Positions 2 through 11,357 of a stretch of DNA of 11,410 bases are shown in pieces. The stretch is from Armatimonadota bacterium. Lineage in GTDB: Bacteria; Armatimonadota; Zipacnadia; Zipacnadales; UBA5352. The stretch covers positions 1-11,410 of the forward strand of contig JAYENL010000163.1 of NCBI GenBank assembly GCA_034722055.1. Reading direction: 5' to 3'. The position numbers and the translations under genes are program-made. The notes beneath the pieces were generated by a model. The model saw only the letters and a program-made list of their open reading frames with translations, did not search any database and was not told the DNA's origin. The stretch's first letter is position 1. Every line of letters starts with the position of its first letter.

Positions 2-754
2 GTCGGGGCCGGCCCCAGCGGGTTGATGGCCGGTCGCGAGCTGGCTCGCGCCGGCGGCAAGGCCCTGATCGTGGAGCGCAACAACTACCTCGGCGGCGGC
101 TTCTGGCTGGGCGGGTACCTGATGAACAAGGTGACGGTCCGCGATCCAGCCCAGCACATTCTCGAGGAGCTGGACGTGCCGTTCGAAGAGGCGCAGGAAC
201 GGCTCTACGTGGCAGACGGGCCTCACGCGTGTTCGAAGCTGATTGCGTCGGCCTGTGACGCGGGAGTTCGCGTGCTCAACATGACCGTCCTCGAGGATCT
301 GGTGGTCCGCGAGGGGCGCGTGGGCGGCGTGGTGGTCAACTGGACGCCGGTGCAGGCGCTGCCCCGGCAGATCACCTGCGTGGACCCGGTGGCGCTGGAG
401 GCGGAGGTGGTGGTGGATGCCACCGGTCACGACGCGGTGGCCGTGTGCGCGCTGGCGCGGCGCGGCCTCGTCGAGGTGCCCGGCTGCGGCGCCATGTGGG
501 TCGAGGGGTCCGAGGACGCGGTGGTGGAGGGGACCGGCGAGGTCTATCCCGGCCTGCACGCGTGCGGGATGGCTGTGGCGAGCGTCCGCGGACTCCCGCG
601 CATGGGCCCCACCTTCGGCGCCATGCTGATCTCGGGCCGTGAGGTCGCGCGTCAGATTCTGGCGTCCGGCCCCACTGGGATGGGGGCGGGGGCCCGAGAG
701 GGCGAAGTCGAGAGCATTCCCGCCACGCAGCAGTCAGAGGCCCAGAGACGATGA
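2..754 (+). CDS. thi4: Thi4-family thiazole (ADP-thiazole) synthase, Cys-type; 5' end lies outside the window
   Basis: Frame from base 2 reads VGAGPSGL (Rossmann GxGxxG), then [33 protein letters not shown] and [14 protein letters not shown], all hallmark Thi4 motifs. The ORF-track start at 23 is an artefact of truncation. Confidence 0.95.
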
Positions 755-761
755 TACCGAT

Positions 762-884
762 CAGGTCGTTGCATCTCAGCCGCATGGCGATGCCCCAGCC
801 GCGGGCGCGCCGGCGCTTCCCCCTGCCGGCGCGTTCGCGGCGCGCTGCGCGTGCCGGCTGAGGCAGGCTCCGCGCGACGACCTG
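762..884 (+). other. Long interrupted GC-rich stem-loop between thi4 and the DUF39 gene
   Basis: Nested pairings 762-772/874-884 (11 bp, one G-U), 775-782/855-862 (8 bp) and 799-814/825-840 (16 bp, two G-U) around the loop GCTTCCCCCT. Confidence 0.65.
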
Positions 885-1012
885 CCACCGATGTGATGTT
901 CCCCCCTCAGTCGGTCACGCACTTCCGTTGCCCTGTTGCACCGATCGGCGCAGCGAGCGCATGCCACAGATACTGCAGCGCCCGCACGGGCGCGCGGAGG
1001 GAGTGCTGACAG

Positions 1013-2236
1013 ATGCCCAAGACATACGAGCAGATCAACGAGAGGATCAGGGCCGGGGAGGCCGTGGTGGTCACCGCCGAGGAGATGATCGACACCGTGG
1101 AGGAGAACGGTGTCGAGGCAGCGGCCGAGCAGGTGGACGTGGTCACCACAGGCACCTTCGCGCCCATGTGCTCGTCGGGTGCCTTCATCAACTTCGGCCA
1201 CGCCAATCCCCGAATCAAGGTCCAGAAGGCGTGGCTCAATGACGTGAACGCCTACGCCGGGCTGGCGGCGGTTGACCTCTACATCGGCGCCACTGAGGTG
1301 CCCGAGCACGACCCGCTCAACCGCGAGCATCCCGGCGAGTTCAGGTACGGCGGCGGCCACGTCATCGAGGACCTGGTGGCCGGCCGCGATGTGCGGCTGC
1401 GGGCGGTGGCCTACGGGACCGACTGCTACCCGCGGCGGGAGCTGGACACGTGGATCAGGCTGGATGACCTCAACGAGGCCTTTCTGTGCAATCCGCGCAA
1501 CGCCTATCAGAACTACAATGTGGCCGTGAACGCGCACGCCGACCGGCCGATCTACACCTACATGGGCGTGCTCAAGCCCGAGTTGGGCAACGCCAACTAC
1601 TGCTCGGCCGGCCAGCTCAGCCCGCTGCTGAACGATCCGCTCTACCGGACCATCGGCATCGGCACGCGGATCTTCCTGGGCGGCGCGCAGGGCTACGTGT
1701 TCTGGCAGGGCACCCAGCACAACCCGACGGTGGATCGCACCGAGGGCGGCGTACCCAGGGGCGGAGCCGGCACCCTCTCTGTCGTCGGCGACCTCAAGCA
1801 GATGAGCCAGCGGTGGATCAGGGGCGTGAGCCTCTACGGCTACGGCGTGTCGCTCAGCGTGGGCCTGGGCATCCCCATCCCGGTGCTGAACGAGGAGATC
1901 GCGCGTTTCACCGCGGTCCGGGATGAGGACATCGTGGCGCCGATCGTGGACTACAGTCGCGGCTACCCCTACAGCGAAAGCGGGCCGCTGGGCCACGTCA
2001 GCTACGCCCAGCTCAAGACCGGCGAGATCGAGATCGACGGACGGGCTGTGCCCACGGCGTCGCTGTCCAGCTACCCCAGGGCGCAGGAGATCGCTCAGAC
2101 GCTCAAGGAGTGGATCCAGGCGGGCCAGTTCCTGCTGTCGCGGCCCGCGGAGCTGCTGCCCTCGGCGGAGTCGGGCCTGACCTTCAAGTCGCTGAGGGAG
2201 CGTCCGGTCGAGGAGGAGGTGGCTGCACGTGGCTAA
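1013..2236 (+). CDS. Homocysteine biosynthesis protein / L-aspartate semialdehyde sulfurtransferase (DUF39, MA1821-like), no CBS domains
   Basis: Motifs KTYEQINERI, VDVVTTGTFAPMCSSGAF (conserved Cys, codon 1169-1171), YGGGHVIEDL, NPRNAYQNY, IYTYMG, GQLSPLLNDP, IGIGTRIFLGGAQGYV and GTQH. SD-like GGAGGGAG upstream. Confidence 0.93.
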   Translation: MPKTYEQINERIRAGEAVVVTAEEMIDTVEENGVEAAAEQVDVVTTGTFAPMCSSGAFINFGHANPRIKVQKAWLNDVNAYAGLAAVDLYIGATEVPEHDPLNREHPGEFRYGGGHVIEDLVAGRDVRLRAVAYGTDCYPRRELDTWIRLDDLNEAFLCNPRNAYQNYNVAVNAHADRPIYTYMGVLKPELGNANYCSAGQLSPLLNDPLYRTIGIGTRIFLGGAQGYVFWQGTQHNPTVDRTEGGVPRGGAGTLSVVGDLKQMSQRWIRGVSLYGYGVSLSVGLGIPIPVLNEEIARFTAVRDEDIVAPIVDYSRGYPYSESGPLGHVSYAQLKTGEIEIDGRAVPTASLSSYPRAQEIAQTLKEWIQAGQFLLSRPAELLPSAESGLTFKSLRERPVEEEVAARG

Positions 2237-2636
2237 GGCCAGAGTGGTCTTTCACTACCCCAGGGCGCTGATCGACGCGCCCATCGCCTCGCGGGTGGCG
2301 CGCGACTTCGACCTGGAGTTCAACATTCTGCGCGCGAACATCACGCCGGACTCGCAGGGCCTGCTGGTGCTGGAGCTGTCGGGCGATCCTCAGGCGCTGA
2401 GCGATGCGCTCGAGTGGGCCGGCGAGCAGGGCGTAGCGGTCCAGCCGCTGGAGCGGGATGTGGTGCGGGACGACGACCTCTGCACCCAGTGCGGGGCCTG
2501 CGTCACCATCTGCCCCACCGCCGCCCTCTCCAGGGACCCGCGCACCCAGGAGGTGGGATTCGATCCGGAGGAGTGCGTGGCGTGCGAGCTGTGCGTGCCC
2601 GCGTGCCCGCCGCACGCCATGACGGTGGCGTTCTGA
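2229..2636 (+). CDS. NIL-domain 2x[4Fe-4S] ferredoxin (MA1822-like partner of the DUF39 enzyme)
   Basis: N-terminal FNILRANI (NIL domain) followed by CTQCGACVTICP and CVACELCVPACP. GTG start overlaps the end of the DUF39 gene, with GAGGAGGAGG upstream. Confidence 0.93.
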   Translation: MAKARVVFHYPRALIDAPIASRVARDFDLEFNILRANITPDSQGLLVLELSGDPQALSDALEWAGEQGVAVQPLERDVVRDDDLCTQCGACVTICPTAALSRDPRTQEVGFDPEECVACELCVPACPPHAMTVAF

Positions 2637-2647
2637 CGGTGTCGCGT

Positions 2648-2696
2648 CCCGGCCGGCGAGCGGTCTCCCATCCCTCCCTGACGCTCTCCGGCCGGG
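2648..2696 (+). other. Intergenic hairpin with C-rich loop upstream of cysK
   Basis: CCCGGCCGG(C)GAGCG at 2648-2662 pairs with CGCTC(T)CCGGCCGGG at 2682-2696. No U-tract follows. Confidence 0.55.
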
Positions 2697-2741
2697 CTTC
2701 CCAGCCAAAGGACGAATGAGGCAAGAGGAGGCGCACCCGCC

Positions 2742-3674
2742 ATGAGCATCGCTCAGGACGTCACGGAGCTTATCGGTGACACCCCGCTGGTGGAGCTGGA
2801 ACGCCTGGCCGATCGGCTGCCGGGCCGGGTGGTGGCGAAGCTGGAGGCATTCAACCCCGGCTTCAGCGTCAAGGACCGCATCGCACTGTCGATGATCGAG
2901 GCGGCGGAGCGTACCGGCCGAATCGGCCCGAACACCATCCTGGTGGAGCCGACGTCGGGCAACACGGGCATCGGGCTGGCGGTGGTGGCCGCCGCGAAGG
3001 GCTACCCGCTGGTGCTGACGATGCCGGAGAGCATGTCCATCGAGCGCCGGCGGCTGCTGAAGGCTCTGGGCGCCGACCTGGTGCTCACCCCCGCGGAGGA
3101 GGGTATGAAGGGCGCCATCGAGCAAGCACTGGACCTGGTGGACAGCGACGACAGGTACCTGGTCCTGCAGCAGTTCGAGAATGAGGCGAACCCGGAGGTC
3201 CACCGACTCACGACCGCCCAAGAGATCTGGGACGATACCGGCGGAGCCGTGGACATCTTCGTGGCCGGCGTGGGCACTGGCGGCACCATCACGGGCGTGG
3301 CGGAGGTGCTGAAGACGCTTAAGCCCGAGGTGAAGGCGATTGCCGTCGAGCCGGCGGACTCCGCGGTGCTGTCCGGGGGCGAGCCCGGGTCGCACAACAT
3401 CCAGGGCATCGGCGCCGGCTTTGTGCCCGAGGTGCTCAACCGCGAGGTGATCGACGAGGTGATCGCCGTGGAGAGTGACGCGGCCATCAGCACGGCACGC
3501 GCGCTGGCACGAAGAGAGGGCATCCTGGCCGGGATCTCGTCCGGCGCCGCCGCCTGGGCGGCCCTGCAGGTGGCTCAGCGCAATGACAGCGAGGGCAAGC
3601 TGATCGTCACCGTGCTGCCCGACACCGGCGAGCGGTATCTCTCCACGCAGCTCTTCGCTCTCAATGACCGGTAG
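2742..3674 (+). CDS. cysK: Cysteine synthase A (O-acetylserine sulfhydrylase)
   Basis: [23 protein letters not shown] (PLP Lys), [43 protein letters not shown] and [19 protein letters not shown] at 2725-2731. Confidence 0.97.
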
Positions 3675-3763: not shown

Positions 3764-5167
3764 CTACGGCTCCAGGGCACTGGCCGAGTAGTCCGTGCGC
3801 TCGACCGCGGCCACAAGCTCCTGCGCGGTGACCGCTCCCTTCTCGGCGGTCACGCGAGCGGTGCTGGATTCAAGACTCACCTCCGCCCGGACAACGCCAC
3901 GCACCCCCTCAAGCGCGCCGGTGACAGTCGCCACGCACTTCTCGCAGGTCATCCCCTCGATCGTCAGTCGGAAGGTCTCCGTGTCCATGGCACTCTCCTC
4001 CTCGCGCACTGCCGCTTCGACGACTGCAAGCAGGTCCTCCTCCTCCCAGAAGGTCCCCGGCCCCATGATGAAGCTCACCTGGCGGTCCTCGCCGTTCTGA
4101 CTGATGGTCACGTTCCGCCGGCCATTGACCAGCACAGCCCCGCAGGTCAGGCCCGCCTCCTGCCAGCGCCTGAAGCCCTCGTCAGTCTGGAAGTCCACGA
4201 ACTCAGTGCTGACGGCGCCCCTGTGCTTCTGCTCAATGCGGTCCAGCAGCTGTTTGATGTGCTGGTGTGTCTCATTGTCCGGGTAGAAGGCGACCACGCT
4301 GACCTTCGCGTCTGCCACGCCGGGGGCGTCAACCGGCTCCAGCCCGTTCCCCTCCAGCAGCGCCAGGCCCCTCTCGGAGACCATGAAGGCCACGAACTCC
4401 GCCGCCAGCTCTGGCTCCGGCGCGTCTCGAAGCACGGCGACCACCGCCTCGGCGGGCCCGTAGCTGTCTCTGGGCAGCTCGAAGGCGATCTCCACCGCCT
4501 TCTGCGGGATCTTGTCCTCGCTGGTCTGCAGCGGGCAGCGCAGGTACATGAAGCCCGCCTGGGACTGTCCCTTGGCCACCATCTGGTGGGACTCGATGGC
4601 GTGATCGGTGAGGATCATGTTCGGCTGCAGCCGCTCCCACAGCTCAAGCGCGGTCAGGGCCTCGCGCGCGTAGAGGCCGGCGGAGTTGAGCGAGGGGTCG
4701 GGGCAGGAGATGGTCTCGGCCTTGAGGAGGTCGTCGGGCGCCTCGATCCCCGCCGGGTTGCCCGCCGGCACGGCGCAGACGAGCGTGAGGCGGGCGAATG
4801 AACGCCTGGAGTCCGGCTGGATCAGGCCCGCGTCCTCCAGCAGCCTCATCTGCTGCTCGCCCGGCGAGATGAAGACGTCCGCCGCCTCGCCCCTGTCGCG
4901 GATGCGCTTGGCCAGCACCACGGCATTGTCGAGAACCGTCTCGATATCGACCCCCTGGTGCTGTCGCTCGAACTCGTCGGTGACGGCCCTCAGGGGCAGG
5001 ACCATGCCACACGGCACCATGATCCTGATCGAGCGCGTGACGGGCGGCGTGCCCGCAGCAGCCGGCGTCGCCTCCACCTGGTCGGTGCCCTCTCGGCAGC
5101 CAACCGAGAGCGCCACGAGGCCGAGTAGGAGGAACGCCACCAGGTGCGCTGCCCTTCTCGCGTGCAT
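3764..5167 (-). CDS. Lipoprotein: ModA-like substrate-binding domain + thioredoxin-like domain + C-terminal HMA (CopZ-like) domain
   Basis: Lipobox LSVG|C24. ModA-fold motifs ADVFISPG, FARLTLVCAVPAGNPAGI, PDPSLNSAGLYAREAL and PELAAEFVAFMVSERG. The middle beta-alpha-beta..VLVNG segment resembles a thioredoxin fold (less certain). C-terminal LTIEGMTCEKCV..V..AL is a classic HMA motif. Confidence 0.88.
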   Translation of the reverse strand: MHARRAAHLVAFLLLGLVALSVGCREGTDQVEATPAAAGTPPVTRSIRIMVPCGMVLPLRAVTDEFERQHQGVDIETVLDNAVVLAKRIRDRGEAADVFISPGEQQMRLLEDAGLIQPDSRRSFARLTLVCAVPAGNPAGIEAPDDLLKAETISCPDPSLNSAGLYAREALTALELWERLQPNMILTDHAIESHQMVAKGQSQAGFMYLRCPLQTSEDKIPQKAVEIAFELPRDSYGPAEAVVAVLRDAPEPELAAEFVAFMVSERGLALLEGNGLEPVDAPGVADAKVSVVAFYPDNETHQHIKQLLDRIEQKHRGAVSTEFVDFQTDEGFRRWQEAGLTCGAVLVNGRRNVTISQNGEDRQVSFIMGPGTFWEEEDLLAVVEAAVREEESAMDTETFRLTIEGMTCEKCVATVTGALEGVRGVVRAEVSLESSTARVTAEKGAVTAQELVAAVERTDYSASALEP

Positions 5168-5181
5168 TGCGCCTCACCATC

Positions 5182-6306
5182 CTACAGATTCAGCATGCAC
5201 TCGCAGATGTACTCACCGATCTCGCTGGCGAACAGCCAGGCGGCGCCGGTGGTGAAGACGACCTCGCAGGCGATGAAGGCCGCCGCCTTCCGCCATCCGA
5301 CACAGCGGGCGATGATCACCGCTCCCGGCAGGCTGGCGCCGGTGCCGGTCAACAGGATCGCCATGGCTGGCCCGGTCGCCAGCCCCAGCTTCATCATGGC
5401 CTTCGCGAACACCACCTCGGACAGGACGGGGAAGTACATCAGCTCCCCGAAGAGGTCCGCGAACATCAGCGAGCGCATGGAGTTGTCCCCCACGTTGCGG
5501 TAGATCCACTTGATGTCCACGTACATCGTCGCTAAGCCAATGGCGATGACGGCGGGGATCAGCACGGGGATGACGGTTTTGAGCAGGTCCCATGTCTCCC
5601 GCCACCACCGGCGGGCGTCCTCGGACGTAAAGCCCCAGGCCATCAGCACCACCACACCGCCGGAGATGCCCACCATCCCCGCCACCTTCCAGCCCACGCC
5701 CGTCTCCACAGCGCCGAAGACTACCATGGCGGTGAGCAGGCCGAACAGGCCCCATGTCTTCAGCCCGAGGGTGTCCACATTCGTCGTCGGCCCCTCCGGC
5801 AGCTCCACCCGCCGGTCCTCCCGCCCGAACAGCACGGCCATCGTCAGCCCACTGACCACCCCCACCAACGGTACAAGGATGGCGCGCCAGAGGCCGATCT
5901 GCCAGCCGATGGCTTTGAAGACCAGGACCAGGGAGACGAGGTTGATCGCCGGCCCGGCGTAGAGGAAGGTGCTGGCAGGGCCGATGCCCGCCCCCGTCCG
6001 GTAGATGCTCACGAACAGCGGCACCACGTTGCACGAGCACAGCGATAGGACGGTCCCGGAGATGGCGGCGACGGAGTACGACACGGACCTGCGCGCGCCG
6101 CTGCCGAGGTATCTGAGGGTGACCGCCGGGGGGACGAAGGCGGCCACGGCACCGGCCAGCAGGAAGGCCGGCAGCACCGTCACCATCGCCTCGCACGTGA
6201 AGAGGCAGCACTGGAAGACATCGACGACCTCGGCAAGCGTCTCGGCAGCGCCCGTGGCTCTCTCGCTCCTTCCCGTCCTGTCCCACGACCGGCGCCCGAC
6301 CGTCAA
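5182..6306 (-). CDS. DUF318/ArsP-family predicted permease (start codon uncertain)
   Basis: Multiple hydrophobic helices with family motifs PAFLLAGA, GTVLSLCSCNVVPLFVSIYRTGAGIGPASTFLYAGPAIN and GLATGPAMAILLTGTGASLP. The N-terminal ~25 residues from TTG 6306 may not be translated. Confidence 0.88.
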   Translation of the reverse strand: MTVGRRSWDRTGRSERATGAAETLAEVVDVFQCCLFTCEAMVTVLPAFLLAGAVAAFVPPAVTLRYLGSGARRSVSYSVAAISGTVLSLCSCNVVPLFVSIYRTGAGIGPASTFLYAGPAINLVSLVLVFKAIGWQIGLWRAILVPLVGVVSGLTMAVLFGREDRRVELPEGPTTNVDTLGLKTWGLFGLLTAMVVFGAVETGVGWKVAGMVGISGGVVVLMAWGFTSEDARRWWRETWDLLKTVIPVLIPAVIAIGLATMYVDIKWIYRNVGDNSMRSLMFADLFGELMYFPVLSEVVFAKAMMKLGLATGPAMAILLTGTGASLPGAVIIARCVGWRKAAAFIACEVVFTTGAAWLFASEIGEYICECMLNL

Positions 6307-6494
6307 TCGCAGCAGTCGGGGCCGCCGGCGGCCGCTCTCATGCGACGTTTTCCGTGAAGTTACAAACGATCTCCAAGCGCCCAGGAGTTCCCACAGGGGC
6401 GGATTGCCCAGGATTGGGCTCAGACATTGCCGAAATGAAGGTCGGGCATGGCCCAGGGAGCCTTTTTCTGGCCGAGGGAACTTGGGGGCATGGG

Positions 6495-6516
6495 TTCAAT
6501 GTTATCTATCAATGAA
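6495..6516. promoter_or_regulatory. AT-rich imperfect palindrome, candidate transcription-factor operator in the divergent promoter region
   Basis: TTCAATGTTATCTATCAATGAA matches its reverse complement at 16 of 22 positions (TTCAnTGnTAnnTAnCAnTGAA) and stands out as AT-rich in a GC-rich window. Confidence 0.55.
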
Positions 6517-6629
6517 GCGAGAGTGGACGGTACCGCAGAGCTGTTGCGCCGGGGAACAGGCGCTGTAAGGCCCCAAACCGGACGCACGGCATCAGTCGCA
6601 CACAGGGCCCGCTGTTGGGAGGAGACGTC

Positions 6630-7523
6630 ATGAAAGGGCTGAAGATTGCTGCAATCCTGATGGCATTGGCCATCATCCCCGCCGTGGTAGCGGCCGTGGG
6701 ATGCGCGCGCAACGTGGGAGAGGACATCGCCCCGCCGGCTCGAGACGAGCCTGTAGAGGCCGCGCAGCGGGACCTGTATCTTGCGGTGGCATGTGGTGTG
6801 GCGGGGCCGTACGGGGAGATCAAGGAGAGGTTTGAGCAGGCGCACCCTGAGGTGACACTGCACCAGGAGATCGGCAACATCGTGACCATGGCCGAGCGCC
6901 TGCGCGACGGCCGGGCCAGCGCCGACATGTTCATGAGCGTCGGCAGCGTGGCGCTGGGCGAGCTGCATGAGGAGGGCCTGCTGCTGGAGCCGCCCATGGA
7001 CTTCGCGGAGGACCGCCTGGTGGTGCTCGTTCCCGAGGGCAATCCGAAGGACATCGAGGAGCTTGAGGACCTGGCCGACGATGGCGTGGAGACGGTGGCG
7101 GTGGCCGCGAGCAAGTCCACGCCGGGGCACTTCGCGGAGATGGCCCTGCGCCGGGCCGGACTGTGGGAGCCGCTCCAGGACCGTCTCGTCCGCCCTGACA
7201 AGCCCGCCATGCTCAAGGGCTTCGTCTCTGAGGGCAAGGCCGACGCGGCGGTCATGCTGCTCACCTGCGCCACGAAGGAGGCGGAGATGGGCGAGGAGCC
7301 CGCCGAGGGCGTCCCCGGAACGGAGATCGCGCTTGAGGTGCCGCACAAGTACTACGACCGGCTCGTCTGTCAGATCGGCATCCTCAGGAACGCGTCCGAT
7401 CCGGAGCTGGCGCGGGAGTTCGCGGAGTTCGTCACCACCGATGAGCCGCAGCGGATCCTGTCGCGGTGGGATTTCGCGCCCTGCGAGAGGGCCGGCGAAG
7501 GGGATGCGTCAGCCGAAACGTGA
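6630..7523 (+). CDS. ModA-like substrate-binding lipoprotein with non-canonical (Cys) binding-site motifs
   Basis: ATG 6630 follows GGAGGAG. Lipobox AAVG|C25. Motifs ADMFMS, FAEDRLVVLVPEGNPKDI..LEDL, TPGHFAEMALRRAGLWE, VSEGKADAA and PELAREFAEFV. Confidence 0.88.
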   Translation: MKGLKIAAILMALAIIPAVVAAVGCARNVGEDIAPPARDEPVEAAQRDLYLAVACGVAGPYGEIKERFEQAHPEVTLHQEIGNIVTMAERLRDGRASADMFMSVGSVALGELHEEGLLLEPPMDFAEDRLVVLVPEGNPKDIEELEDLADDGVETVAVAASKSTPGHFAEMALRRAGLWEPLQDRLVRPDKPAMLKGFVSEGKADAAVMLLTCATKEAEMGEEPAEGVPGTEIALEVPHKYYDRLVCQIGILRNASDPELAREFAEFVTTDEPQRILSRWDFAPCERAGEGDASAET

Positions 7524-7540
7524 TGAAGCGAGGGAGCAGC

Positions 7541-8107
7541 ATGGCGGTCACCATCAGCATCTACCACGCACCCAAGCGCTGCGCGAAGTGCGAGCGCATG
7601 GAGGAGATGGCGCGCGAGGTGGCGGCCTCGTTCCCGGGGCGGGTCGAGATCGTTCTCACGCCCGTGGGTGAGGCACCCGCGGAGCTGGGCGTGATCATGC
7701 CGCCGAGCATGGCCGTGGACGGCCAGTTGGTGGCTGTTGGCAGGCTGCCCAACAAGCAGGACGTCGCCGCCACGGTCGCCGAGGCCCTGGGCGGAGAGCA
7801 GCCCACGGGCGCCGCCGGCCCGGGCGGCAGCGCCTTCGGGCACGGCCGAGCGGTGATCGAGGGCGAAAGGGTCTACGTGTGCGCGGAGGACTTCTCGGAT
7901 CGCTCCGGCTGCCAGCCCATGCTCCTGTTCTGGTACGTCGATGAGGGCGACAGCGTTGAGGAGGGGCAGGAGCTAGCGGAGGTGGAGTCGGCCAAGGCGG
8001 TCTTCGTCATCGAGAGCCCCGTCAATGGGCTGCTCGAAGAGATCCTGGTCACTGAGGGGGAGACCATCGAGCCGAACCAGCGCCTGGCGGCGCTGAGGGC
8101 GGAGTAG
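7541..8107 (+). CDS. Fusion of a small CxxC thioredoxin-like domain (MTH895/redox-active disulfide protein 2 type) and a lipoyl/biotinyl-carrier domain
   Basis: N-terminal CAKC (7580-7591) plus LGVIMPPSMAVDGQLVAVGRLP. C-terminal WYVDEGDSVEEGQELAEVESAKAVFVIESPVNGLLEEILVTEGETI with lipoyl-type Lys at 7994-7996. SD GAGGGAG precedes ATG 7541; alternative ATG 7523 overlaps the upstream stop. Confidence 0.88.
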   Translation: MAVTISIYHAPKRCAKCERMEEMAREVAASFPGRVEIVLTPVGEAPAELGVIMPPSMAVDGQLVAVGRLPNKQDVAATVAEALGGEQPTGAAGPGGSAFGHGRAVIEGERVYVCAEDFSDRSGCQPMLLFWYVDEGDSVEEGQELAEVESAKAVFVIESPVNGLLEEILVTEGETIEPNQRLAALRAE

Positions 8108-8157
8108 CTGGGCCATGGGGGCCGCGGCTCGCGGCCGGAGCACGGAGAGATGGGGTC

Positions 8158-10317
8158 ATGATCTATCTCGATAACGCCGCAACCACGCCTGTGGACGAGC
8201 GAGTTCTGGAGGCCATGCTGCCGTATCTGCGGCGGGACTTCGGCAATCCCAGCAGCTCGCACGCCGCCGGGAGGGCGGCGCGAAGGGCGGTGGAGGAGGC
8301 CCGAGGCGCCGTGGCCGCAGCGATCGGCGCCGAGCCGTCACAGCTCATCTTCACCACCTCGGGCACCGCCGCCAGCAACCTCGCCATCCGCGGCACACTC
8401 GGCGCACTTGGGGGCGACCGGGGACACGTAGTTACAAGCGCCATCGAGCACGCGAGCGTCCACAGGATTGTGAGGGCGCTGGGGGAGGCGGGGTGGCTCA
8501 CCACGGTGCTGCCGGTCACCCCCGAGGGGCAGGGTGAGCCTGAGACGCTGCAGGCCGCGCTGCGCCCGGACACGGCGCTGGTGTCCATCATGTACGGGAA
8601 CAACGAGATCGGCTCGCTGCAGCCCGTCGGCGAGATCGGCGCCCTGTGTCGGGAGCGCGGCGTGCTCTTTCACTGCGATGCGGTGCAGGCCCTCGGCCAC
8701 GTGCCCTTGGAACTGGCCCAGCTTCCGGTGGCCTTCATGAGCTTCTCGGGCCATAAGATCAACGCGCCCAAGGGCGTCGGGGCACTGTTCGTGCGCGACA
8801 GGTCGCTGCTGCAGCCGGTCTTGACCGGCGGCGGCCAGGAGCAGGGGCTGTGGCCGGGAACGGAGGCGGTGGCGAACATCGTTGCCCTCGGCGCGGCGGC
8901 TCGGCTGCTTCCCGAGCTGCTGGCTGCAAGCGAGGAGATGGCCCGCCTCCGCGATGAGCTCATCGAGCAGGTGCTCGACGGAGTGCCGGGAGCACGGGCC
9001 ACCGGGCATCGCACCGAGCGCCTGCCGCACATCGCCAGCTTCTGCTTCGAGGGCGTGTCCGGCGACGCCCTCGTCATGGCCCTGGACCAGCGCGGCATCT
9101 GCGCATCGACGGGCGCGGTGTGCTCCAGCGGCTCGGGTAAGCCCTCCCGGGTTCTCCAGGCGATCGGGCTGTCGGATCGGCTGGCGGGGAGCTCGCTGCG
9201 TCTGAGCCTGGGGCGCCGGAGCACGGCCGGGGAGGTGCGCGAGGCGGCGCAGGCGGTGGTGCAGATCGTGAACGCGCTCCGCTCGGAGGGCGCCCCGAGG
9301 GCACACAGGCGGCGTCCGCTGAACCCGGCGCTGGCGGGCCCCGTTGAGGCTGGGCGCCTCGATGCCCAGGAGCGGCGGCGACTCACAGACGAGATCAATG
9401 CGCTGGGCGGCCAGAGGGGCGCGGTCGTCGTGGCCCACAACGCGCAGCTCCCGGAGGTCCAGGACATCGCCGATGAGTGCGGCGGCATCGGGCATCTGAT
9501 GCGGGCGGCGCTGGATGCGAAGGCCGGCACCATCGTCTCCTGCGGCGTCTCGTTCATGGCGGAGCTGATCGCCTGCCTGCGTCCGGATGTGATGGTGCTG
9601 AACCCGTCGTCTGATGCCCGCTGTCCCATGCGCCGAATGGTCTCCGTTGAGGACGTCCGCGAGCTGCGGGCGGCGCATCCTGACGCTCCAGTGGTGGCCT
9701 GTGCGAAGACCGGCCCGGAGGTCATCGCCGAGGCCGACATCTGCTGCACACCCGACAACGCCGTGGCCGTGGTGGGCTCGCCCACCTCCGATCAGGTCAT
9801 CATGGTGCCGGACCGCAACCTCGCCGCCTGGGTGCAGAGCCGGCTTCCGGAGGCGGAGGTCATCGCCGCGGAGGGCTACTGCCCGCCGCATCGAGTGATG
9901 ACGCTGGAGGTGCTCGAGGCGGCGACCCGCAGACATCCCGACCTGTTGATACTGGCGCACCCTCACTGTTCGCGGGAGGTGCTGGGACGTGCGGACTTCA
10001 TCGGCGGCAGTGACGGGATGGTGGAGTTCGCGCGCCGGCAGGAGAACCGGGAGATGCTGGTGGTGAGCGAATGCGGCCTTGTGCACCGCCTGCGGCGGGA
10101 GCAGCCGCAGGCCACCTTCCACGCCGCCCCGCAGATGGTCTGCGCGACCATGAAGCGTGTGGGCCGGCGCGAGGTCCGGGACGCCCTCCGCGATACGCGT
10201 GAGGTCGTTTCCGTGGACCCCGGTACCGCGCATCGCGCTGCAGGTGCCATCAACCGGATGCTGGAGGTTGTCGCGAGCGTGCCCGACCACCACACAAGTG
10301 AGGGGAGCACAAAGTGA
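8158..10317 (+). CDS. Group I cysteine desulfurase (IscS/NifS-like) fused to a divergent NadA-like [4Fe-4S] domain
   Basis: Desulfurase part (~8158-9282): IYLDNAATTP, FGNPSS, IEHASV, NNEIG, HCDAVQA, SGHK (PLP Lys 8755), GGGQE, STGAVCSSG (catalytic Cys 9121), SLRLSLGR. NadA-like part (~9382-10270): AHNAQ.PEVQDIAD, CGVSFMAE, CPM, PDRNL, YCPPH, AHPHC, CATMK. Confidence 0.92.
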   Translation: MIYLDNAATTPVDERVLEAMLPYLRRDFGNPSSSHAAGRAARRAVEEARGAVAAAIGAEPSQLIFTTSGTAASNLAIRGTLGALGGDRGHVVTSAIEHASVHRIVRALGEAGWLTTVLPVTPEGQGEPETLQAALRPDTALVSIMYGNNEIGSLQPVGEIGALCRERGVLFHCDAVQALGHVPLELAQLPVAFMSFSGHKINAPKGVGALFVRDRSLLQPVLTGGGQEQGLWPGTEAVANIVALGAAARLLPELLAASEEMARLRDELIEQVLDGVPGARATGHRTERLPHIASFCFEGVSGDALVMALDQRGICASTGAVCSSGSGKPSRVLQAIGLSDRLAGSSLRLSLGRRSTAGEVREAAQAVVQIVNALRSEGAPRAHRRRPLNPALAGPVEAGRLDAQERRRLTDEINALGGQRGAVVVAHNAQLPEVQDIADECGGIGHLMRAALDAKAGTIVSCGVSFMAELIACLRPDVMVLNPSSDARCPMRRMVSVEDVRELRAAHPDAPVVACAKTGPEVIAEADICCTPDNAVAVVGSPTSDQVIMVPDRNLAAWVQSRLPEAEVIAAEGYCPPHRVMTLEVLEAATRRHPDLLILAHPHCSREVLGRADFIGGSDGMVEFARRQENREMLVVSECGLVHRLRREQPQATFHAAPQMVCATMKRVGRREVRDALRDTREVVSVDPGTAHRAAGAINRMLEVVASVPDHHTSEGSTK

Positions 10318-11357
10318 AGCCTACACGACCGGCAGCTTTCGCGCGCGTGGCGCTGGCGGCGACAGAAGCGCTCTTCCTCGCCGCGGTGCTCGCGGGGTCA
10401 GGCTGCACGACGAACCGCAGTGCCGATGCCATCACGGCCGACAGCAGCGATGCAGGTGCCGCTGCCGAAGAGCTGGTCATCTTCCACGCCGAGGACCTGA
10501 CGCGCCCCTTCAGCGCCCTGGAGGCCATCCTGGAGCGCCGCGAGCCGGGGCTGGACGTCGTGCGCGAGTCCGGCAGCAGCGAGATGGCGTGCCGGAAGGT
10601 AACCGACCTCGGCCGCAGGGCCGACGTGGTGGCGGTCACCGACTACTCCCTGATCGACCAGATGCTGATACCCGACCTCACGAGCTGGGCGGTGACCTTC
10701 GCCCGCAATCGCATCGTGCTGCTCTACGGGGAGGCAAGCCGCCACCATACCGAGATCGGCAGCGACAACTGGTTCGAGATCCTGCTGCGGGAGGACGTAA
10801 CCTACGGCTACGCCGACCCGTCCATCGCGCCGGTGGGCTACCGGACGCTGCTGAGCTTCAGGCTGGCGGACATTCACCACGGGGGCGGCGACGGGCGTCT
10901 CTACGAGCGCCTTGTCCGAGGCTGCCCGGAGACGAACATCCGCCCGCACTGCGAGCAGCTTTTCCCGATGGTCCAGTCGGGATCGCTGGACTACGTCTTC
11001 CACTATCGATCCCTGGCAGCCCAGCACCACCTGCAATACGTTGAGCTGGCCCCGCAGGTGGATCTGAGCGATCCAGCTCTGGCGGACCAGTACGCTCGGG
11101 CGAGCGTTGAGATTCCCGGGGGACCGGGCGGGCGGCCCGAGACGGTCACGGGCAGGCCCATCGTCTACGCCATCACGATCCTGGACGACGCGGGCAACCG
11201 GCAGGCGGCGATGGGCTTCCTGCGCCTGCTTTTAGGCTCGGAGGGCCGGAAGGCACTCGAGGAGCACCTCCTGGACCTCACGCAGCCGAACGTCACCCCC
11301 GGCTCCGAGCGCCCGCCGGAGGAGCTCGCCGATCTGATTGACGACACTGTCTCCTGA
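10314..11357 (+). CDS. WtpA-like (tungstate/molybdate-binding family) lipoprotein with altered ligand residues
   Basis: GTG start overlaps the upstream TGA. Lipobox LAGSG|C31. WtpA-type motifs LVIFHA, RKVTDLGRRADVVAVTDYSLI, NWFEILLR, GYRT, LDYVFHYRSLAAQHHLQYVEL..VDLSDP and PIVYAITI. Confidence 0.9.
   Translation: MKPTRPAAFARVALAATEALFLAAVLAGSGCTTNRSADAITADSSDAGAAAEELVIFHAEDLTRPFSALEAILERREPGLDVVRESGSSEMACRKVTDLGRRADVVAVTDYSLIDQMLIPDLTSWAVTFARNRIVLLYGEASRHHTEIGSDNWFEILLREDVTYGYADPSIAPVGYRTLLSFRLADIHHGGGDGRLYERLVRGCPETNIRPHCEQLFPMVQSGSLDYVFHYRSLAAQHHLQYVELAPQVDLSDPALADQYARASVEIPGGPGGRPETVTGRPIVYAITILDDAGNRQAAMGFLRLLLGSEGRKALEEHLLDLTQPNVTPGSERPPEELADLIDDTVS

What the first reader, a model, noticed from the sequence alone, without database searches (positions are those of the whole stretch)
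3764..11357. Candidate undescribed system: divergent six-gene cluster of repurposed, thiol-equipped transport and sulfur-transfer proteins
Seen: ArsP/DUF318 permease (CSC, CC, CEC) and a ModA-Trx-HMA lipoprotein on one arm; a Cys-ModA lipoprotein, a Trx-lipoyl fusion, an IscS-NadA-like fusion and a His/Cys WtpA-like lipoprotein on the other. Genes within each arm are closely packed. Every gene is an unusual fusion or carries non-canonical cysteines, while canonical ligand or catalytic residues are missing in four of them. Established: DUF318 permeases co-occur with small CxxC thioredoxins in ars loci and in the SAO organometallic locus; As(III) and Hg(II) bind vicinal thiols, including dihydrolipoamide; lipoyl proteins (LbpA) can carry sulfur. 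Inference: a surface-capture, permease and cytoplasmic thiol/persulfide relay for a thiophilic species (As/Sb/Se/Te compound, Cu/Hg, thio-Mo/W or polysulfide). Automated annotation would mislabel it as molybdate uptake plus NAD synthesis.
Basis: partly seen in the sequence, partly recalled or inferred. Interest (0 to 1): 0.88.

Follow-up and report, generated by a model that had tools for sequence, protein, structure and literature searches.

The report
Cysteine-lined transport cluster in Armatimonadota
Six tightly packed genes of an uncultured anaerobic bacterium encode cysteine-bearing look-alikes of molybdate/tungstate-binding proteins, an arsenic-type permease, a thioredoxin-lipoyl fusion and a sulfur-mobilising enzyme fused to a disabled NAD-synthesis enzyme; together they likely pass a sulfur-loving metal or sulfur species across the membrane from cysteine to cysteine, and are predicted not to take up molybdate or make NAD.

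Summary
In detail: all six genes, their domain fusions, extra cysteines and tight packing are there. Canonical ligand or catalytic residues are replaced in four of them: ModA-X, ModA2, WtpA' and NadA'.

The complete six-gene set is narrow. It occurs intact in G000 and one same-genus genome, under purifying selection (dN/dS 0.15-0.28), and as a decaying copy in a third genome.

A core trio is widespread in the phylum: an ArsP-type permease with CC/CSC/CxC, followed by two ModA-fold lipoproteins that each carry one cysteine per lobe. It sits in 14 of the 17 Armatimonadota genomes found to hold ModA-X, usually inside a WtpBC-type ABC operon. In 10 of those 14, including this one, no MoaC was found. 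This genome also yielded no MoeA, tungsten enzyme or nitrogenase hit. Molybdate or tungstate uptake is therefore unlikely.

NadA' keeps its three Fe-S cysteines but loses the active site, and a normal nifS-nadA pair lies elsewhere in the genome.

Best reading (about 0.4): a Mer/SAO-like thiol relay for a thiophilic ligand of unknown identity. This is a new variant of a known kind.

The parts
3764..5167 (-). ModA-X-HMA lipoprotein (467 aa). It has a lipobox Cys24, a ModA-fold domain with Cys53 (VPCGM) and Cys211 (LRCP), a CxxC-less thioredoxin-like X domain (283-395) with His301 and Cys342, and a C-terminal HMA domain (GMTCEKC).
   Evidence: Domains. Conserved residues. Alignment to solved ModA. 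Models and fold searches: (TM to target up to 0.85 with ModA structures). Atlas.
5182..6306 (-). ArsP_1-family permease with three vicinal cysteine pairs: CC 33-34, CSC 90-92 and C-terminal CEC 368-370. The start is uncertain (TTG at 6306 or ATG at 6186).
   Evidence: Domain hits. All three pairs are conserved in 11 of 11 related loci. CC and the C-terminal CxC are absent from the Leptolinea and E. coli plasmid permeases. Start-codon problem.
6307..6629 (.). Divergent intergenic region, presumably holding the promoters and an operator. It contains a 22-nt imperfect palindrome, TTCAATGTTATCTATCAATGAA, at about 6493-6516.
   Evidence: 93% identical to G001 over the aligned 500 nt. No Rfam family and no sigma-70 consensus match.
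6630..7523 (+). ModA2 lipoprotein (297 aa) with the same two-lobe cysteine pair as ModA-X. These are Cys60 and Cys218 in the numbering of the 302-aa ORF that starts at 6615.
   Evidence: Domain hits. Cys60 and Cys218 are kept in all related matches that cover those columns. Ser12 is replaced by Gly, Tyr170 by Leu and Asp173 by Cys relative to solved ModA.
7541..8107 (+). Cytoplasmic Thioredoxin_3 (CAKC) fused to a lipoyl/biotinyl domain (ESAKA lysine), with conserved Cys114 and Cys124 in front of the lipoyl fold.
   Evidence: Domain hits. Seven homologues at 54-95% identity and their alignment. In locus L028 the two halves are separate genes.
8158..10317 (+). NifS/IscS-type cysteine desulfurase (1-~380; PLP lysine and catalytic cysteine intact) fused to NadA' (~400-719). 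NadA' keeps the three [4Fe-4S] cysteines, but Tyr, Asp-Ser, Tyr/Asn, Ser, Glu and Ser-Thr of the quinolinate synthase site are replaced.
   Evidence: The fusion was found only in G000 and G001. In 1.84 billion representatives the next relative of NadA' is 41% identical. The stem branch is long, 1.99 changes per column.
10314..11357 (+). WtpA' lipoprotein (347 aa), overlapping the previous gene by 4 nt. Its motifs are HAEDL, DPSIAP and PHC, where canonical WtpA has HAGSL, NSDP (Asp ligand) and PKE (Glu ligand).
2..3674 (+). Flanking context, not part of the cluster proper. Sulfide-dependent Thi4, HcyBio, NIL-ferredoxin and CysK lie beside the cluster here and, about 3 kb away, in G014. They are absent from the G001 contig.

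Best explanation
The cluster is predicted to be a thiol-exchange relay. Two ModA-fold lipoproteins, each carrying one cysteine on each lobe of the binding cleft, would capture a thiophilic ligand outside the cell. This ligand is most likely a soft metal ion or a metal-sulfide species rather than molybdate or tungstate. The lipoproteins would hand it to an ArsP-type permease lined with three vicinal cysteine pairs, which would likely carry it inward to cytoplasmic dithiol carriers.

Shown by the calls or the sequence:
- the domain architectures;
- the conserved cysteines;
- the loss of the oxyanion and quinolinate-synthase residues;
- the conserved gene order ArsP, ModA-X, ModA2 in 14 genomes;
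- purifying selection on all six genes;
- a separate housekeeping nifS-nadA pair elsewhere in the genome;
- no hit for MoaC, MoeA_N, AFOR_N or NifDK in this 92.7%-complete genome.

Inferred:
- The cysteine pairs bind the cargo and pass it on by ligand exchange, as MerP and MerT do with Hg(II) and as proposed for the SAO system.
- Transport is inward and serves metabolism rather than resistance. The module sits in importer operons, lacks an ArsR/MerR-type regulator in the loci examined, and lies beside biosynthetic genes.
- In this genus the cytoplasmic receivers are the Trx(CxxC)-lipoyl protein and NifS-NadA'. Its fused desulfurase would build a [4Fe-4S] cluster with one open iron site on the catalytically dead NadA scaffold, which would act as acceptor, sensor or sulfur-transfer site for the cargo.
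- The extracytoplasmic HMA domain and WtpA' (with new Glu, Asp, His and Cys at the site) would be extra capture sites.

The identity of the ligand is unknown.
For: Conserved cysteines:
- Cys53, Cys211, His301 and Cys342 are invariant in 14 ModA-X sequences of 31-82% identity.
- ModA2 carries cysteines at the same two positions.
- CC, CSC and the C-terminal CxC of the permease are kept in 11 of 11 loci. CC and the C-terminal CxC are missing from two resistance-type relatives.

Gene order:
- ArsP lies directly upstream of ModA-X in 14 of the 17 genomes with ModA-X, 13 intact and 1 remnant.
- ModB-like genes follow in 10 loci and ModC-like genes in 7.

Against Mo/W oxyanions:
- Ligand residues are replaced.
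- MoaC was not found in 10 of the 14 module-bearing genomes.
- G000 gave no MoeA_N, AFOR_N or NifDK hit, and only a weak partial PF00384 hit.
- Canonical Asp/Glu WtpA occurs in the three g16 genomes that hold MoaC (G025, G035, G039), while the four WtpA copies from f1 genomes (G000:C55, G001:C26, G004, G014), where no MoaC was found, carry Ala/His-Cys.

Against NAD synthesis:
- NadA' lacks 6-7 site residues that nearly all of the 22 compared NadA sequences keep.
- A housekeeping nifS-nadA pair is present at C242.

Other support:
- Family knowledge points to metals: HMA best hits are CopZ, MerP and UxxU metal-binding proteins, and ArsP_1 best hits are SaoE and SO_0444 Cu/Zn efflux.
- Typical resistance modules pair the permease with ArsR and Trx_3. 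None of the loci I annotated holds such a regulator.
- Trx-like, lipoyl and NifS genes recur next to ModA-X in two further genomes (L028, L032).
- dN/dS is 0.15-0.28 for all six genes.
- B. subtilis NifS-NadA is described as a dedicated donor-acceptor pair with in-situ cluster assembly (passage read in PMC13066941).
- The SAO design consists of cysteine/selenocysteine-lined binding proteins, an extra binding lipoprotein, an ArsP-family SaoE and a Trx-like SaoT (10.1101/2022.07.06.499078; abstract and sections 16-20 and 35 read).
Against: - No binding, transport or expression data exist.
- The tools returned no model coordinates, so I could not check that the cysteines converge in space.
- Known ArsP-family members are exporters (recalled, and as stated in the SAO preprint), so inward transport is unprecedented.
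- The ModB/ModC proteins of the relatives' operons carry no invariant cysteines. They look like ordinary oxyanion importers, so the ABC part may move something else.
- Four module-bearing genomes do have MoaC. In family f7, ModA-X sits beside an aldehyde:ferredoxin oxidoreductase, a MoaD-like gene and a MoeB-like gene, which favours W or sulfur.
- The cluster adjoins sulfide-dependent biosynthesis genes in two genera, which favours sulfur.
- In G014 the locus is decaying: the permease is deleted and Trx-lipoyl is frameshifted.
- Translation of the permease CC motif in this genus is uncertain.
- The roles assigned to residues rest on recalled literature numbering.
Confidence: 0.4

Rival explanations
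1. Reduced-sulfur acquisition. The cysteine-bearing lipoproteins and permease would take up sulfane sulfur, polysulfide or thiosulfate as cysteine-bound persulfides. They would pass it to Trx-lipoyl and NifS-NadA', feeding the sulfide-dependent Thi4, HcyBio and CysK enzymes next door.
For: - Thi4, HcyBio, NIL-Fd and CysK flank the cluster here and lie about 3 kb from it in G014, at 74-86% identity.
- No NIR_SIR sulfite reductase was found in G000, so reduced sulfur is needed.
- The SBP and permease families include sulfate/thiosulfate transporters (CysT/CysW/CysA hits; SubI).
- NifS, MoaD-like and MoeB-like sulfur carriers lie next to ModA-X in L028 and L032.
- A ThiE gene follows ModA2 in L026.
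Against: - In G001 the same cluster is flanked by carA/carB-like genes instead.
- A cysteine desulfurase takes sulfur from cysteine, which is odd in a pathway that would supply cysteine synthesis.
- HMA and ArsP_1 are metal(loid) families.
- No rhodanese, TusA or DsrE-type carrier was seen in the loci annotated.
- To my knowledge (recalled) no transmembrane persulfide relay has been described.
Confidence: 0.2
2. Resistance. The permease would export a toxic thiophilic metal(loid) such as As(III), organoarsenical, Hg, Cu, Zn or Cd. Trx-lipoyl would be the cytoplasmic chelator, and the cysteine lipoproteins and HMA domain would sequester the metal outside.
For: - ArsP_1 relatives are annotated as efflux proteins (SaoE, SO_0444).
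- Plasmid relatives sit next to ArsR and Trx_3.
- A Shewanella homologue matters under zinc stress (figure legend read in 10.1101/072470).
- The dithiol lipoyl group and HMA are classical soft-metal binders (recalled).
- The DNA is held by runs labelled brine metagenome.
Against: - No ArsR/MerR/CsoR-type regulator was seen in any annotated locus.
- In 10 loci the module sits inside an importer operon.
- No mobile-element genes turned up in the loci annotated, and the neighbours seen include biosynthetic genes.
- NifS-NadA' has no role in such a scheme.
Confidence: 0.15
3. Molybdenum or tungsten acquisition under sulfidic conditions. The cysteine-bearing ModA/WtpA look-alikes would bind thiomolybdate or thiotungstate, and NifS would serve cofactor sulfuration.
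For: - The best family hits are modA, WtpA, WtpB and WtpC.
- The relatives' ATPases carry TOBE domains.
- L028 reads AOR, ferredoxin-like gene, MoaD-like gene, NifS, ModA-X; L032 reads ModA-X, NifS, MoaD-like gene, MoeB-like gene.
- MoaC is present in 4 module-bearing genomes and in the 3 genomes that have ModA-X without ArsP.
Against: - G000 (92.7% complete) gave no MoaC, MoeA_N, AFOR_N or NifDK hit, and only a weak partial PF00384 hit.
- 10 of the 14 module-bearing genomes gave no MoaC hit, among them G027 at 98% completeness. No AFOR_N was found in those among the 41 relatives searched, and G027, G032, G037 and G040 gave no PF00384 hit either.
- The Asp/Glu ligands of WtpA and Ser/Tyr ligands of ModA are replaced.
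Confidence: 0.12
4. Transmembrane reductant relay, DsbD/CcdA-like. Electrons would flow from dihydrolipoyl to Trx CxxC, through the permease cysteine pairs, and keep extracytoplasmic cysteine proteins (the X domain, HMA and the lipoproteins) reduced. Nothing would be transported.
For: - There is a cytoplasmic CxxC thioredoxin fused to a redox-active carrier domain, cysteine pairs at both ends of and inside the membrane protein, and an extracytoplasmic thioredoxin-like domain.
Against: - The X domain lacks CxxC and has only one conserved Cys.
- The Trx-lipoyl partner is absent from the 11 ABC-type or related loci examined.
- ArsP_1 is a transporter family.
Confidence: 0.08

Closest known systems
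SAO (selenocysteine-assisted organometallic) locus of Clostridioides difficile and other anaerobes (Haft & Gwadz 2022, bioRxiv 10.1101/2022.07.06.499078; abstract and sections 16-20 and 35 read)
   Same: - Confined to anaerobes.
- An uptake ABC transporter with a Cys-lined binding protein plus an extra Cys-bearing binding lipoprotein.
- An ArsP-family permease with CSC.
- A small MJ0307/Thioredoxin_3-type protein.
- Repeated vicinal Cys motifs, including a C-terminal one.
- The authors argue for metabolism rather than resistance.
   Different: - The protein families differ. Here the binding proteins have the ModA/WtpA fold, and the SaoE, SaoA and SaoT models are missed by wide margins or not hit.
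- The locus holds no MerB-like SaoL, DsrE-like SaoD or SaoC.
- No selenocysteine was seen.
- This cluster adds HMA, lipoyl and NifS-NadA' modules.
- SAO itself is a hypothesis from a preprint.
MerP-MerT mercury uptake relay (recalled knowledge, not read here)
   Same: - An extracytoplasmic HMA (GMTCxxC) domain.
- A membrane protein with vicinal cysteine pairs.
- Hand-over to cytoplasmic cysteine pairs by ligand exchange.
- Inward transport of a thiophilic metal.
   Different: - There is no MerT, MerA or MerR homologue in the cluster.
- The membrane protein belongs to ArsP_1.
- The capture proteins are two-lobed solute-binding proteins.
ArsP / SO_0444 / ArsR-Trx_3-permease resistance modules
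   Same: - Pfam ArsP_1 membership and the CSC motif.
- Frequent pairing with a Thioredoxin_3 protein.
   Different: - The extra N-terminal CC and C-terminal CxC.
- No ArsR regulator.
- Fixed partnership with two di-Cys lipoproteins.
- Here the Trx is fused to a lipoyl domain.
- Scores lie far below the equivalog cut-offs (89.3 against 325; 52.4 against 300).
ModABC / WtpABC molybdate-tungstate importers
   Same: - The fold: TM to target up to 0.85 with solved ModA structures, and E 2e-61 to solved WtpA/ModA for WtpA'.
- Relatives carry WtpB/WtpC-like genes.
   Different: - Ligand residues are replaced by Gly/Cys, Ala, Leu or Cys, or by Ala and His-Cys.
- There is no permease or ATPase gene in this cluster.
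- No Moco pathway was found in the host genome.
NifS-NadA donor-acceptor pair of Bacillus subtilis and the adjacent nifS-nadA genes of this order
   Same: - A cysteine desulfurase dedicated to building the [4Fe-4S] cluster of NadA (passage in PMC13066941).
- The two genes are adjacent in 20 of the 41 genomes (my count from the table).
- The fusion keeps the desulfurase residues and the three cluster cysteines.
   Different: - Here the two are fused, which was seen in only 2 proteins of the 5.8-billion set.
- NadA has lost its substrate and catalytic residues.
- The gene is an extra copy beside the housekeeping pair.

Membership tests
ModA (molybdate-binding protein) | Type II periplasmic binding fold of the SBP_bac_11 family | tested here: met
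   Pfam scores 146.7 and 127.3 bits. The ModA-X model has pLDDT 88 and matches solved ModA structures at E 1e-20.
ModA (molybdate-binding protein) | Oxyanion-binding residues (Ser12, Ser39, Tyr170 in E. coli numbering, recalled) | tested here: not met
   ModA-X has Gly at Ser12 (preceded by Cys) and Ala at Ser39; Tyr is mostly kept. ModA2 has Gly at Ser12 and Leu at Tyr170.
ModA/WtpA transport system | Adjacent ABC permease and ATPase genes | tested here: not met
   None lie in the window or in the G001 contig. They are present in 10 related loci. The only ModB-like gene of G000 is in the separate WtpABC operon on C55.
ModA/WtpA transport system | Host makes or uses Mo/W cofactors | tested here: not met
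   MoaC, MoeA_N, AFOR_N and NifDK were not found in G000 at 92.7% completeness. Absence cannot be proven for a MAG.
WtpA (tungstate-binding protein) | Carboxylate ligands Asp153 and Glu218 (A. fulgidus numbering, recalled) giving octahedral coordination | tested here: not met
   They are Ala and Cys in WtpA' and in the four WtpA copies from family f1. They are Asp and Glu in the three MoaC-holding genomes G025, G035 and G039. The whole-protein score of 261 bits passes TIGR03730 (242.75) but 288.9 misses NF003196 (355).
NadA (quinolinate synthase) | Family profile and three cysteine ligands of the [4Fe-4S] cluster | tested here: met
   Pfam 270.4 bits. All three Cys columns are invariant in the 24-row alignment.
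NadA (quinolinate synthase) | Substrate-binding and catalytic residues (HNYQ Tyr, GDS, YxN, TS, HPE Glu, ST; roles recalled) | tested here: not met
   The motifs read HNAQ, GGIG, CAKT, CCTP, HPHC and GSDG/GGDA in the two NadA' sequences, against near-universal conservation in the other 22 rows.
NifS/IscS cysteine desulfurase | PLP lysine and catalytic cysteine loop | tested here: met
   SGHK and TGAVCSSGSG align with the housekeeping enzymes. The NifS equivalog score of 424.5 is below the cut-off of 530.75.
ArsP / SaoE / SO_0444 permeases | ArsP_1 profile and CSC motif | tested here: met
   157.2 bits. CSC aligns with the Leptolinea and E. coli plasmid permeases.
ArsP / SaoE / SO_0444 permeases | Equivalog-level similarity to a characterised or named subfamily | tested here: not met
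   SaoE 89.3 against 325; SO_0444 52.4 against 300.
SAO system | Presence of SaoL, SaoP, SaoB, SaoX, SaoC, SaoT and SaoD families, and selenocysteine | tested here: not met
   NCBIfam listed no Sao model for the cluster proteins other than the weak SaoE hit, plus a SaoA hit below cut-off for a relative's ATPase. No TGA lies at a Cys column. These families were not searched genome-wide.
Lipoyl/biotinyl carrier domain | Domain profile with the modifiable lysine, and a modification pathway in the host | tested here: met
   Biotin_lipoyl 58.1 bits. The lysine of E-S/T-A-K-A is invariant in 10 sequences. LipA scores 365 bits against a cut-off of 310, and there are two BPL_LplA_LipB genes. Whether the lysine is lipoylated, biotinylated or bare cannot be tested here.
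Thioredoxin fold (X domain of ModA-X) | Beta-alpha-beta-alpha-beta-beta-alpha fold with a CxxC active site | tested here: inconclusive
   The fold is supported: pLDDT 91, thioredoxins as the top PDB matches at E 1e-4 and TM 0.5-0.6, and the Atlas result. CxxC is absent; a weak profile match (E 0.12) places His301 at the second Cys.

The most novel reading that the evidence does not exclude
An ArsP-family permease works as a binding-protein-dependent importer of a metal-sulfur species. Di-cysteine ModA-fold lipoproteins hand the cargo through three membrane cysteine pairs to a Trx-lipoyl carrier. A NifS fused to a NadA-derived scaffold uses its open-iron [4Fe-4S] cluster to accept the cargo and build or repair a metal-sulfur cofactor. 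This would be a previously unknown route by which anaerobes in sulfidic brines acquire thiophilic metals.
Probability: 0.12. Interest if true: 0.9.

Novelty: new variant of a known kind. Interest (0 to 1): 0.64.

Why it matters
If the reading holds, three points follow.
- The ModA/WtpA fold, a textbook oxyanion binder, has been converted into a two-lobe thiolate clamp.
- ArsP-type permeases, known as exporters, may work with binding proteins.
- A quinolinate synthase has been recycled as a cluster-bearing module, loaded in cis by its own desulfurase.

Together these would give a second, selenium-free example of the still hypothetical SAO-type 'cysteine bucket brigade', with proteins that could be purified and tested directly.

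There is also a practical point. Annotation pipelines name these genes molybdate transport and NadA (source names). That would credit molybdenum uptake to genomes in which no Moco pathway was found, and it over-counts NAD synthesis genes.

Tried and rejected
- **Selenium.** No in-frame TGA lies at any conserved Cys column in the 17 ModA-X matches. The selD hits are all below cut-off. The Sec/Se idea is not supported.
- **Regulatory RNA or riboswitch.** No Rfam family reached gathering score in the window or in 10 related loci, 137.6 kb in all.
- **Promoter and terminator scan.** Nothing above the shuffled expectation.
- **Wider locus hunts.** The pattern-based scan of genome contigs returned only 2 loci. 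The scan of metagenome contigs returned one 1.1-kb locus at 31% identity. The distribution beyond Armatimonadota is therefore untested.
- **Atlas feature search for ModA-X.** It gave only generic ModA clusters, with scores of at most 0.86.
- **Literature.** The following searches found no paper describing these fusions or cysteine-bearing ModA proteins, within the library searched:
  - UPF0718 / DUF318 / COG0701 / PF03773;
  - thiomolybdate + ModA;
  - NadA-like / NadA paralog / NadA homolog;
  - thiotungstate / WtpA / TupA;
  - ArsP + redox-active disulfide protein 2.
- **Complex prediction (ArsP with ModA-X).** The queue was full and nothing was folded. Binding between these proteins is therefore untested.
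- **Sequencing runs.** No RNA holder was listed. I did not lay any reads.
- **Invariant cysteines in the relatives' ABC permease or ATPase.** None found.
- **Origin of NadA'.** Whether it arose by duplication of the housekeeping gene or by transfer is unresolved in the tree.
- **Recurrent regulators or other extra genes around the related operons.** None found among the neighbours annotated.

Full report
**What is there.** The window is a whole 11,410-bp contig (C163) of a 6.1-Mb, 330-contig MAG, 92.7% complete. The source name of a near-identical protein places it in Armatimonadota. G+C is about 69%. ORF listing and Pfam/NCBIfam scans give the following genes.

- On the minus strand:
  - a 467-aa lipoprotein with an SBP_bac_11 (ModA-like) domain, an unassigned middle domain and a C-terminal HMA domain (3764-5167);
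  - an ArsP_1 permease (5182-6306).
- On the plus strand:
  - a ModA-like lipoprotein (6630-7523);
  - a Thioredoxin_3-lipoyl fusion (7541-8107);
  - a 719-aa Aminotran_5 + NadA fusion (8158-10317);
  - a WtpA-like lipoprotein (10314-11357).

Gaps within the arms are 14, 17, 50 and -4 nt. Upstream lie sulfide-dependent Thi4, HcyBio, NIL-ferredoxin and CysK.

**Residue checks.** The roles of the residues are recalled from the structural literature; the alignments were made here.

NadA':
- Against solved NadA and 22 other NadA sequences, NadA' keeps all three cluster cysteines.
- It reads HNAQ for HNYQ, GGIG for GDSL, CAKT for YVNT, CCTP for CCTS, HPHC for HPEC and GSDG for STGG.
- Its 'CC' is ordinary for NadA.

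WtpA':
- Against solved WtpA/ModA and relatives, WtpA' has Ala and Cys where the tungstate-ligating Asp and Glu sit.
- It has HAEDL for HAGSL.
- The Ala/His-Cys pair is shared by the binding protein of the genome's separate WtpABC operon on C55 and by three other f1-family copies.
- The three genomes G025, G035 and G039, which hold MoaC, keep Asp and Glu.

ModA-X and ModA2 replace the Ser12-equivalent by Gly, preceded by Cys. They place a second Cys at the Asp173-equivalent, just after the Tyr170 position.

The IscS half keeps the PLP lysine and the catalytic cysteine.

The middle domain of ModA-X is a CxxC-less thioredoxin-like fold:
- my model has pLDDT 91, and the 40 PDB matches with E <= 0.001 that I read are thioredoxins or thioredoxin fusions, at TM 0.5-0.6 with a high rmsd;
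- the Atlas model gives TM 0.62-0.66 to thioredoxin clusters;
- profile matches are weak, E 0.1-0.6.

The whole ModA-X model has pLDDT 88 and matches solved ModA at E 1e-20.

**How far the cluster is conserved.**

The six-gene set:
- The same-genus genome G001 has all six genes in the same order, at 82-91% amino-acid identity, but with different flanks.
- dN/dS for the six genes is 0.15-0.28.
- The divergent intergenic region is 93% identical between G000 and G001.
- Among the 41 genomes of the order searched with the fusion protein, only G000 and G001 carry the fusion.
- In 20 of the 41, by my count from the table, nifS and nadA are adjacent separate genes. G000 itself has such a pair at C242, in a neighbourhood shared with G003, G007 and G010.
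- The 5.8-billion-protein search found two such fusions, plus one unrelated aldo-keto-reductase-NadA-ferredoxin fusion.
- In 1.84 billion representatives, the nearest relative of NadA' after G001 (77%) is 41% identical.
- NadA' sits on a stem branch of 1.99 changes per column, against a median tip length of 0.69.
- Trx-lipoyl has seven homologues at 54-95% identity. All have CxxC and the ESAKA-type lysine; Cys124 is invariant and Cys114 nearly so.

The core module:
- ModA-X without HMA has nine homologues at 58-71% identity.
- A scan of 401 Armatimonadota genomes plus follow-up gives 17 genomes with ModA-X.
- In 14 of these 17, an ArsP gene lies directly upstream and ModA2 directly downstream. 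The ArsP gene is intact in 13 and a deletion remnant in G014.
- In 10 loci a ModB-like gene follows (66-82% identical among them). In 7 loci a TOBE-bearing ModC-like gene follows.
- ModA2 is then usually fused to a third ModA domain, and further cysteine-bearing ModA paralogues follow.
- Cys53, Cys211, His301 and Cys342 of ModA-X, the two equivalent cysteines of ModA2, and the CC, CSC and C-terminal CxC of the permease are conserved throughout.
- Cys155 is not conserved.
- CSC is family-wide. CC and the C-terminal CxC are specific to this subfamily.

Other contexts:
- Two f7-family genomes have ModA-X without ArsP, flanked by a lipoyl protein, NifS and a MoaD-like gene. L028 adds a CxxC-less Trx_3-like gene and a tungsten-type aldehyde oxidoreductase. 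L032 adds a MoeB-like gene.
- In G014 the locus is decaying: the permease is deleted internally and Trx-lipoyl is frameshifted. It still lies near the same Thi4-HcyBio-NIL-Fd-CysK genes.

**What it is not.**
- Not NAD synthesis. The active site is gone and a housekeeping pair exists elsewhere.
- Probably not molybdate or tungstate uptake.
  - G000 yielded no MoaC, MoeA_N, AFOR_N or NifDK, and only a weak partial PF00384 hit.
  - MoaC was not found in 10 of the 14 module-bearing genomes. These include G027 (98% complete), G040, G026 and G014 (96%). It was found in 4.
  - Strong molybdopterin-enzyme and AOR hits mostly track the MoaC-bearing genomes; G006 and G008, where no MoaC was found, are exceptions.
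  - Absence in MAGs is never proof, but the pattern is consistent.
- No selenium signal.
- No sulfite reductase was found.
- LipA and two lipoate/biotin ligase-family genes are present.

**Most likely mechanism (confidence about 0.4).** I read the cluster as a thiol-exchange relay for a thiophilic ligand.
- The ligand would be captured by the two-lobe cysteine clamps of the lipoproteins. In this genus the HMA domain and the Glu/Asp/His/Cys site of WtpA' would help.
- It would be passed to the permease cysteine pairs and received in the cytoplasm by the Trx-lipoyl dithiols and by NifS-NadA'.
- The fused desulfurase would assemble a [4Fe-4S] cluster in cis, as described for the B. subtilis NifS-NadA pair (passage in PMC13066941).
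- I infer inward, metabolic use from three things: the importer-operon context, the lack of ArsR-type regulators (present next to plasmid relatives), and the biosynthetic neighbours.

All steps beyond architecture, conservation and gene order are inferred.

Four rivals remain open: reduced-sulfur uptake (0.2), resistance/efflux (0.15), thio-Mo/W acquisition (0.12) and a DsbD-like reductant relay (0.08).

Points against my reading:
- known ArsP members are exporters;
- the ABC subunits of relatives carry no conserved cysteines;
- the f7 context points to tungsten or sulfur;
- the flank here points to sulfur;
- translation of the permease CC motif in this genus is uncertain.

**Comparison with what is known.** The closest design is the SAO locus proposed by Haft and Gwadz (preprint; abstract and sections 16-20 and 35 read). 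The classical MerP-MerT relay (recalled) is also close. The protein families differ, and no SAO model is met. My literature searches found no description of di-cysteine ModA-fold proteins, of a NifS-NadA' fusion or of Trx-lipoyl fusions in the library searched. I therefore class the cluster as a new variant of a known kind (thiol-lined trafficking of thiophilic species). Two elements are unusual: a ModA fold turned into a thiolate clamp, and a NadA pseudoenzyme fused to its desulfurase.

**Limits.**
- The tools gave no model coordinates, so cysteine geometry was not measured.
- No RNA run is listed for the stretch.
- The contig ends 53 nt after WtpA'. In G001 two small ORFs without Pfam hits follow.
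- The scan's earlier notes on this genome supplied only context (an anaerobic fermenter) and were not tested here.

Noticed in passing
L017 (G014) 7784-9960: The orthologous locus in another genus is decaying. The ArsP gene is reduced to N- and C-terminal fragments of about 60-75 codons in different frames. The Trx-lipoyl gene is frameshifted with stops. ModA-X and ModA2 stay intact.
   Followed up: partly
proteins P0038, P0040, P0003: Other NadA-family proteins in public data also carry degenerate active sites, with different substitutions (P0038, P0040). One is fused to an aldo-keto reductase and ferredoxin domains (P0003). Non-catalytic or repurposed NadA may be a wider phenomenon.
   Followed up: no
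G000:C55 (L035 6172-9413): The genome's only WtpABC-type operon has a binding protein with Ala and His-Cys in place of the tungstate-ligating Asp and Glu, in a genome where no Moco pathway was found. The WtpA copies of G001, G004 and G014 carry the same motifs. The cargo of this ABC transporter is therefore also open.
   Followed up: partly
G000:C221 (L037 7199-9529): Another ModA-like lipoprotein gene lies next to a 385-aa protein with an N-terminal glutaredoxin-like CxxC domain and a weak ArsG-type permease hit. This is a second thiol-plus-ModA pairing in the same genome.
   Followed up: no
G000:C135 (L038 7944-8261) and G000:C281:27851-28075: Homologues of the X domain (34-36% identical) occur in other proteins of the genome. 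The Atlas lists unnamed ~170-aa Armatimonadota clusters with the same predicted fold (TM 0.84-0.88).
   Followed up: no
G000:C154 (L036 7687-8727): A second ArsP paralogue (69% identical) stands alone, without lipoprotein partners. It keeps the N-terminal CC but lacks the C-terminal CxC.
   Followed up: partly
G000:C314:33031-35788: A second CysK-HcyBio-NIL-ferredoxin set (56-72% identical to the window's copies) exists in the genome.
   Followed up: no
L028 8665-9879 and L032 10627-11832: The NifS genes next to ModA-X in family f7 carry a C-terminal CxxxCxC tail (DIGKCDENCPCF). This tail is absent from the housekeeping and fused copies.
   Followed up: no
window about 6493-6516: A 22-nt AT-rich imperfect palindrome lies in the otherwise GC-rich divergent intergenic region and is conserved in G001. 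It is a candidate operator for an unknown regulator.
   Followed up: no
L021 8140-8330 and other relatives: In most relatives the permease has an extra N-terminal transmembrane segment before the VDVFxCC motif. This segment is missing in the window's genus, which bears on which side of the membrane the CC pair faces.
   Followed up: no
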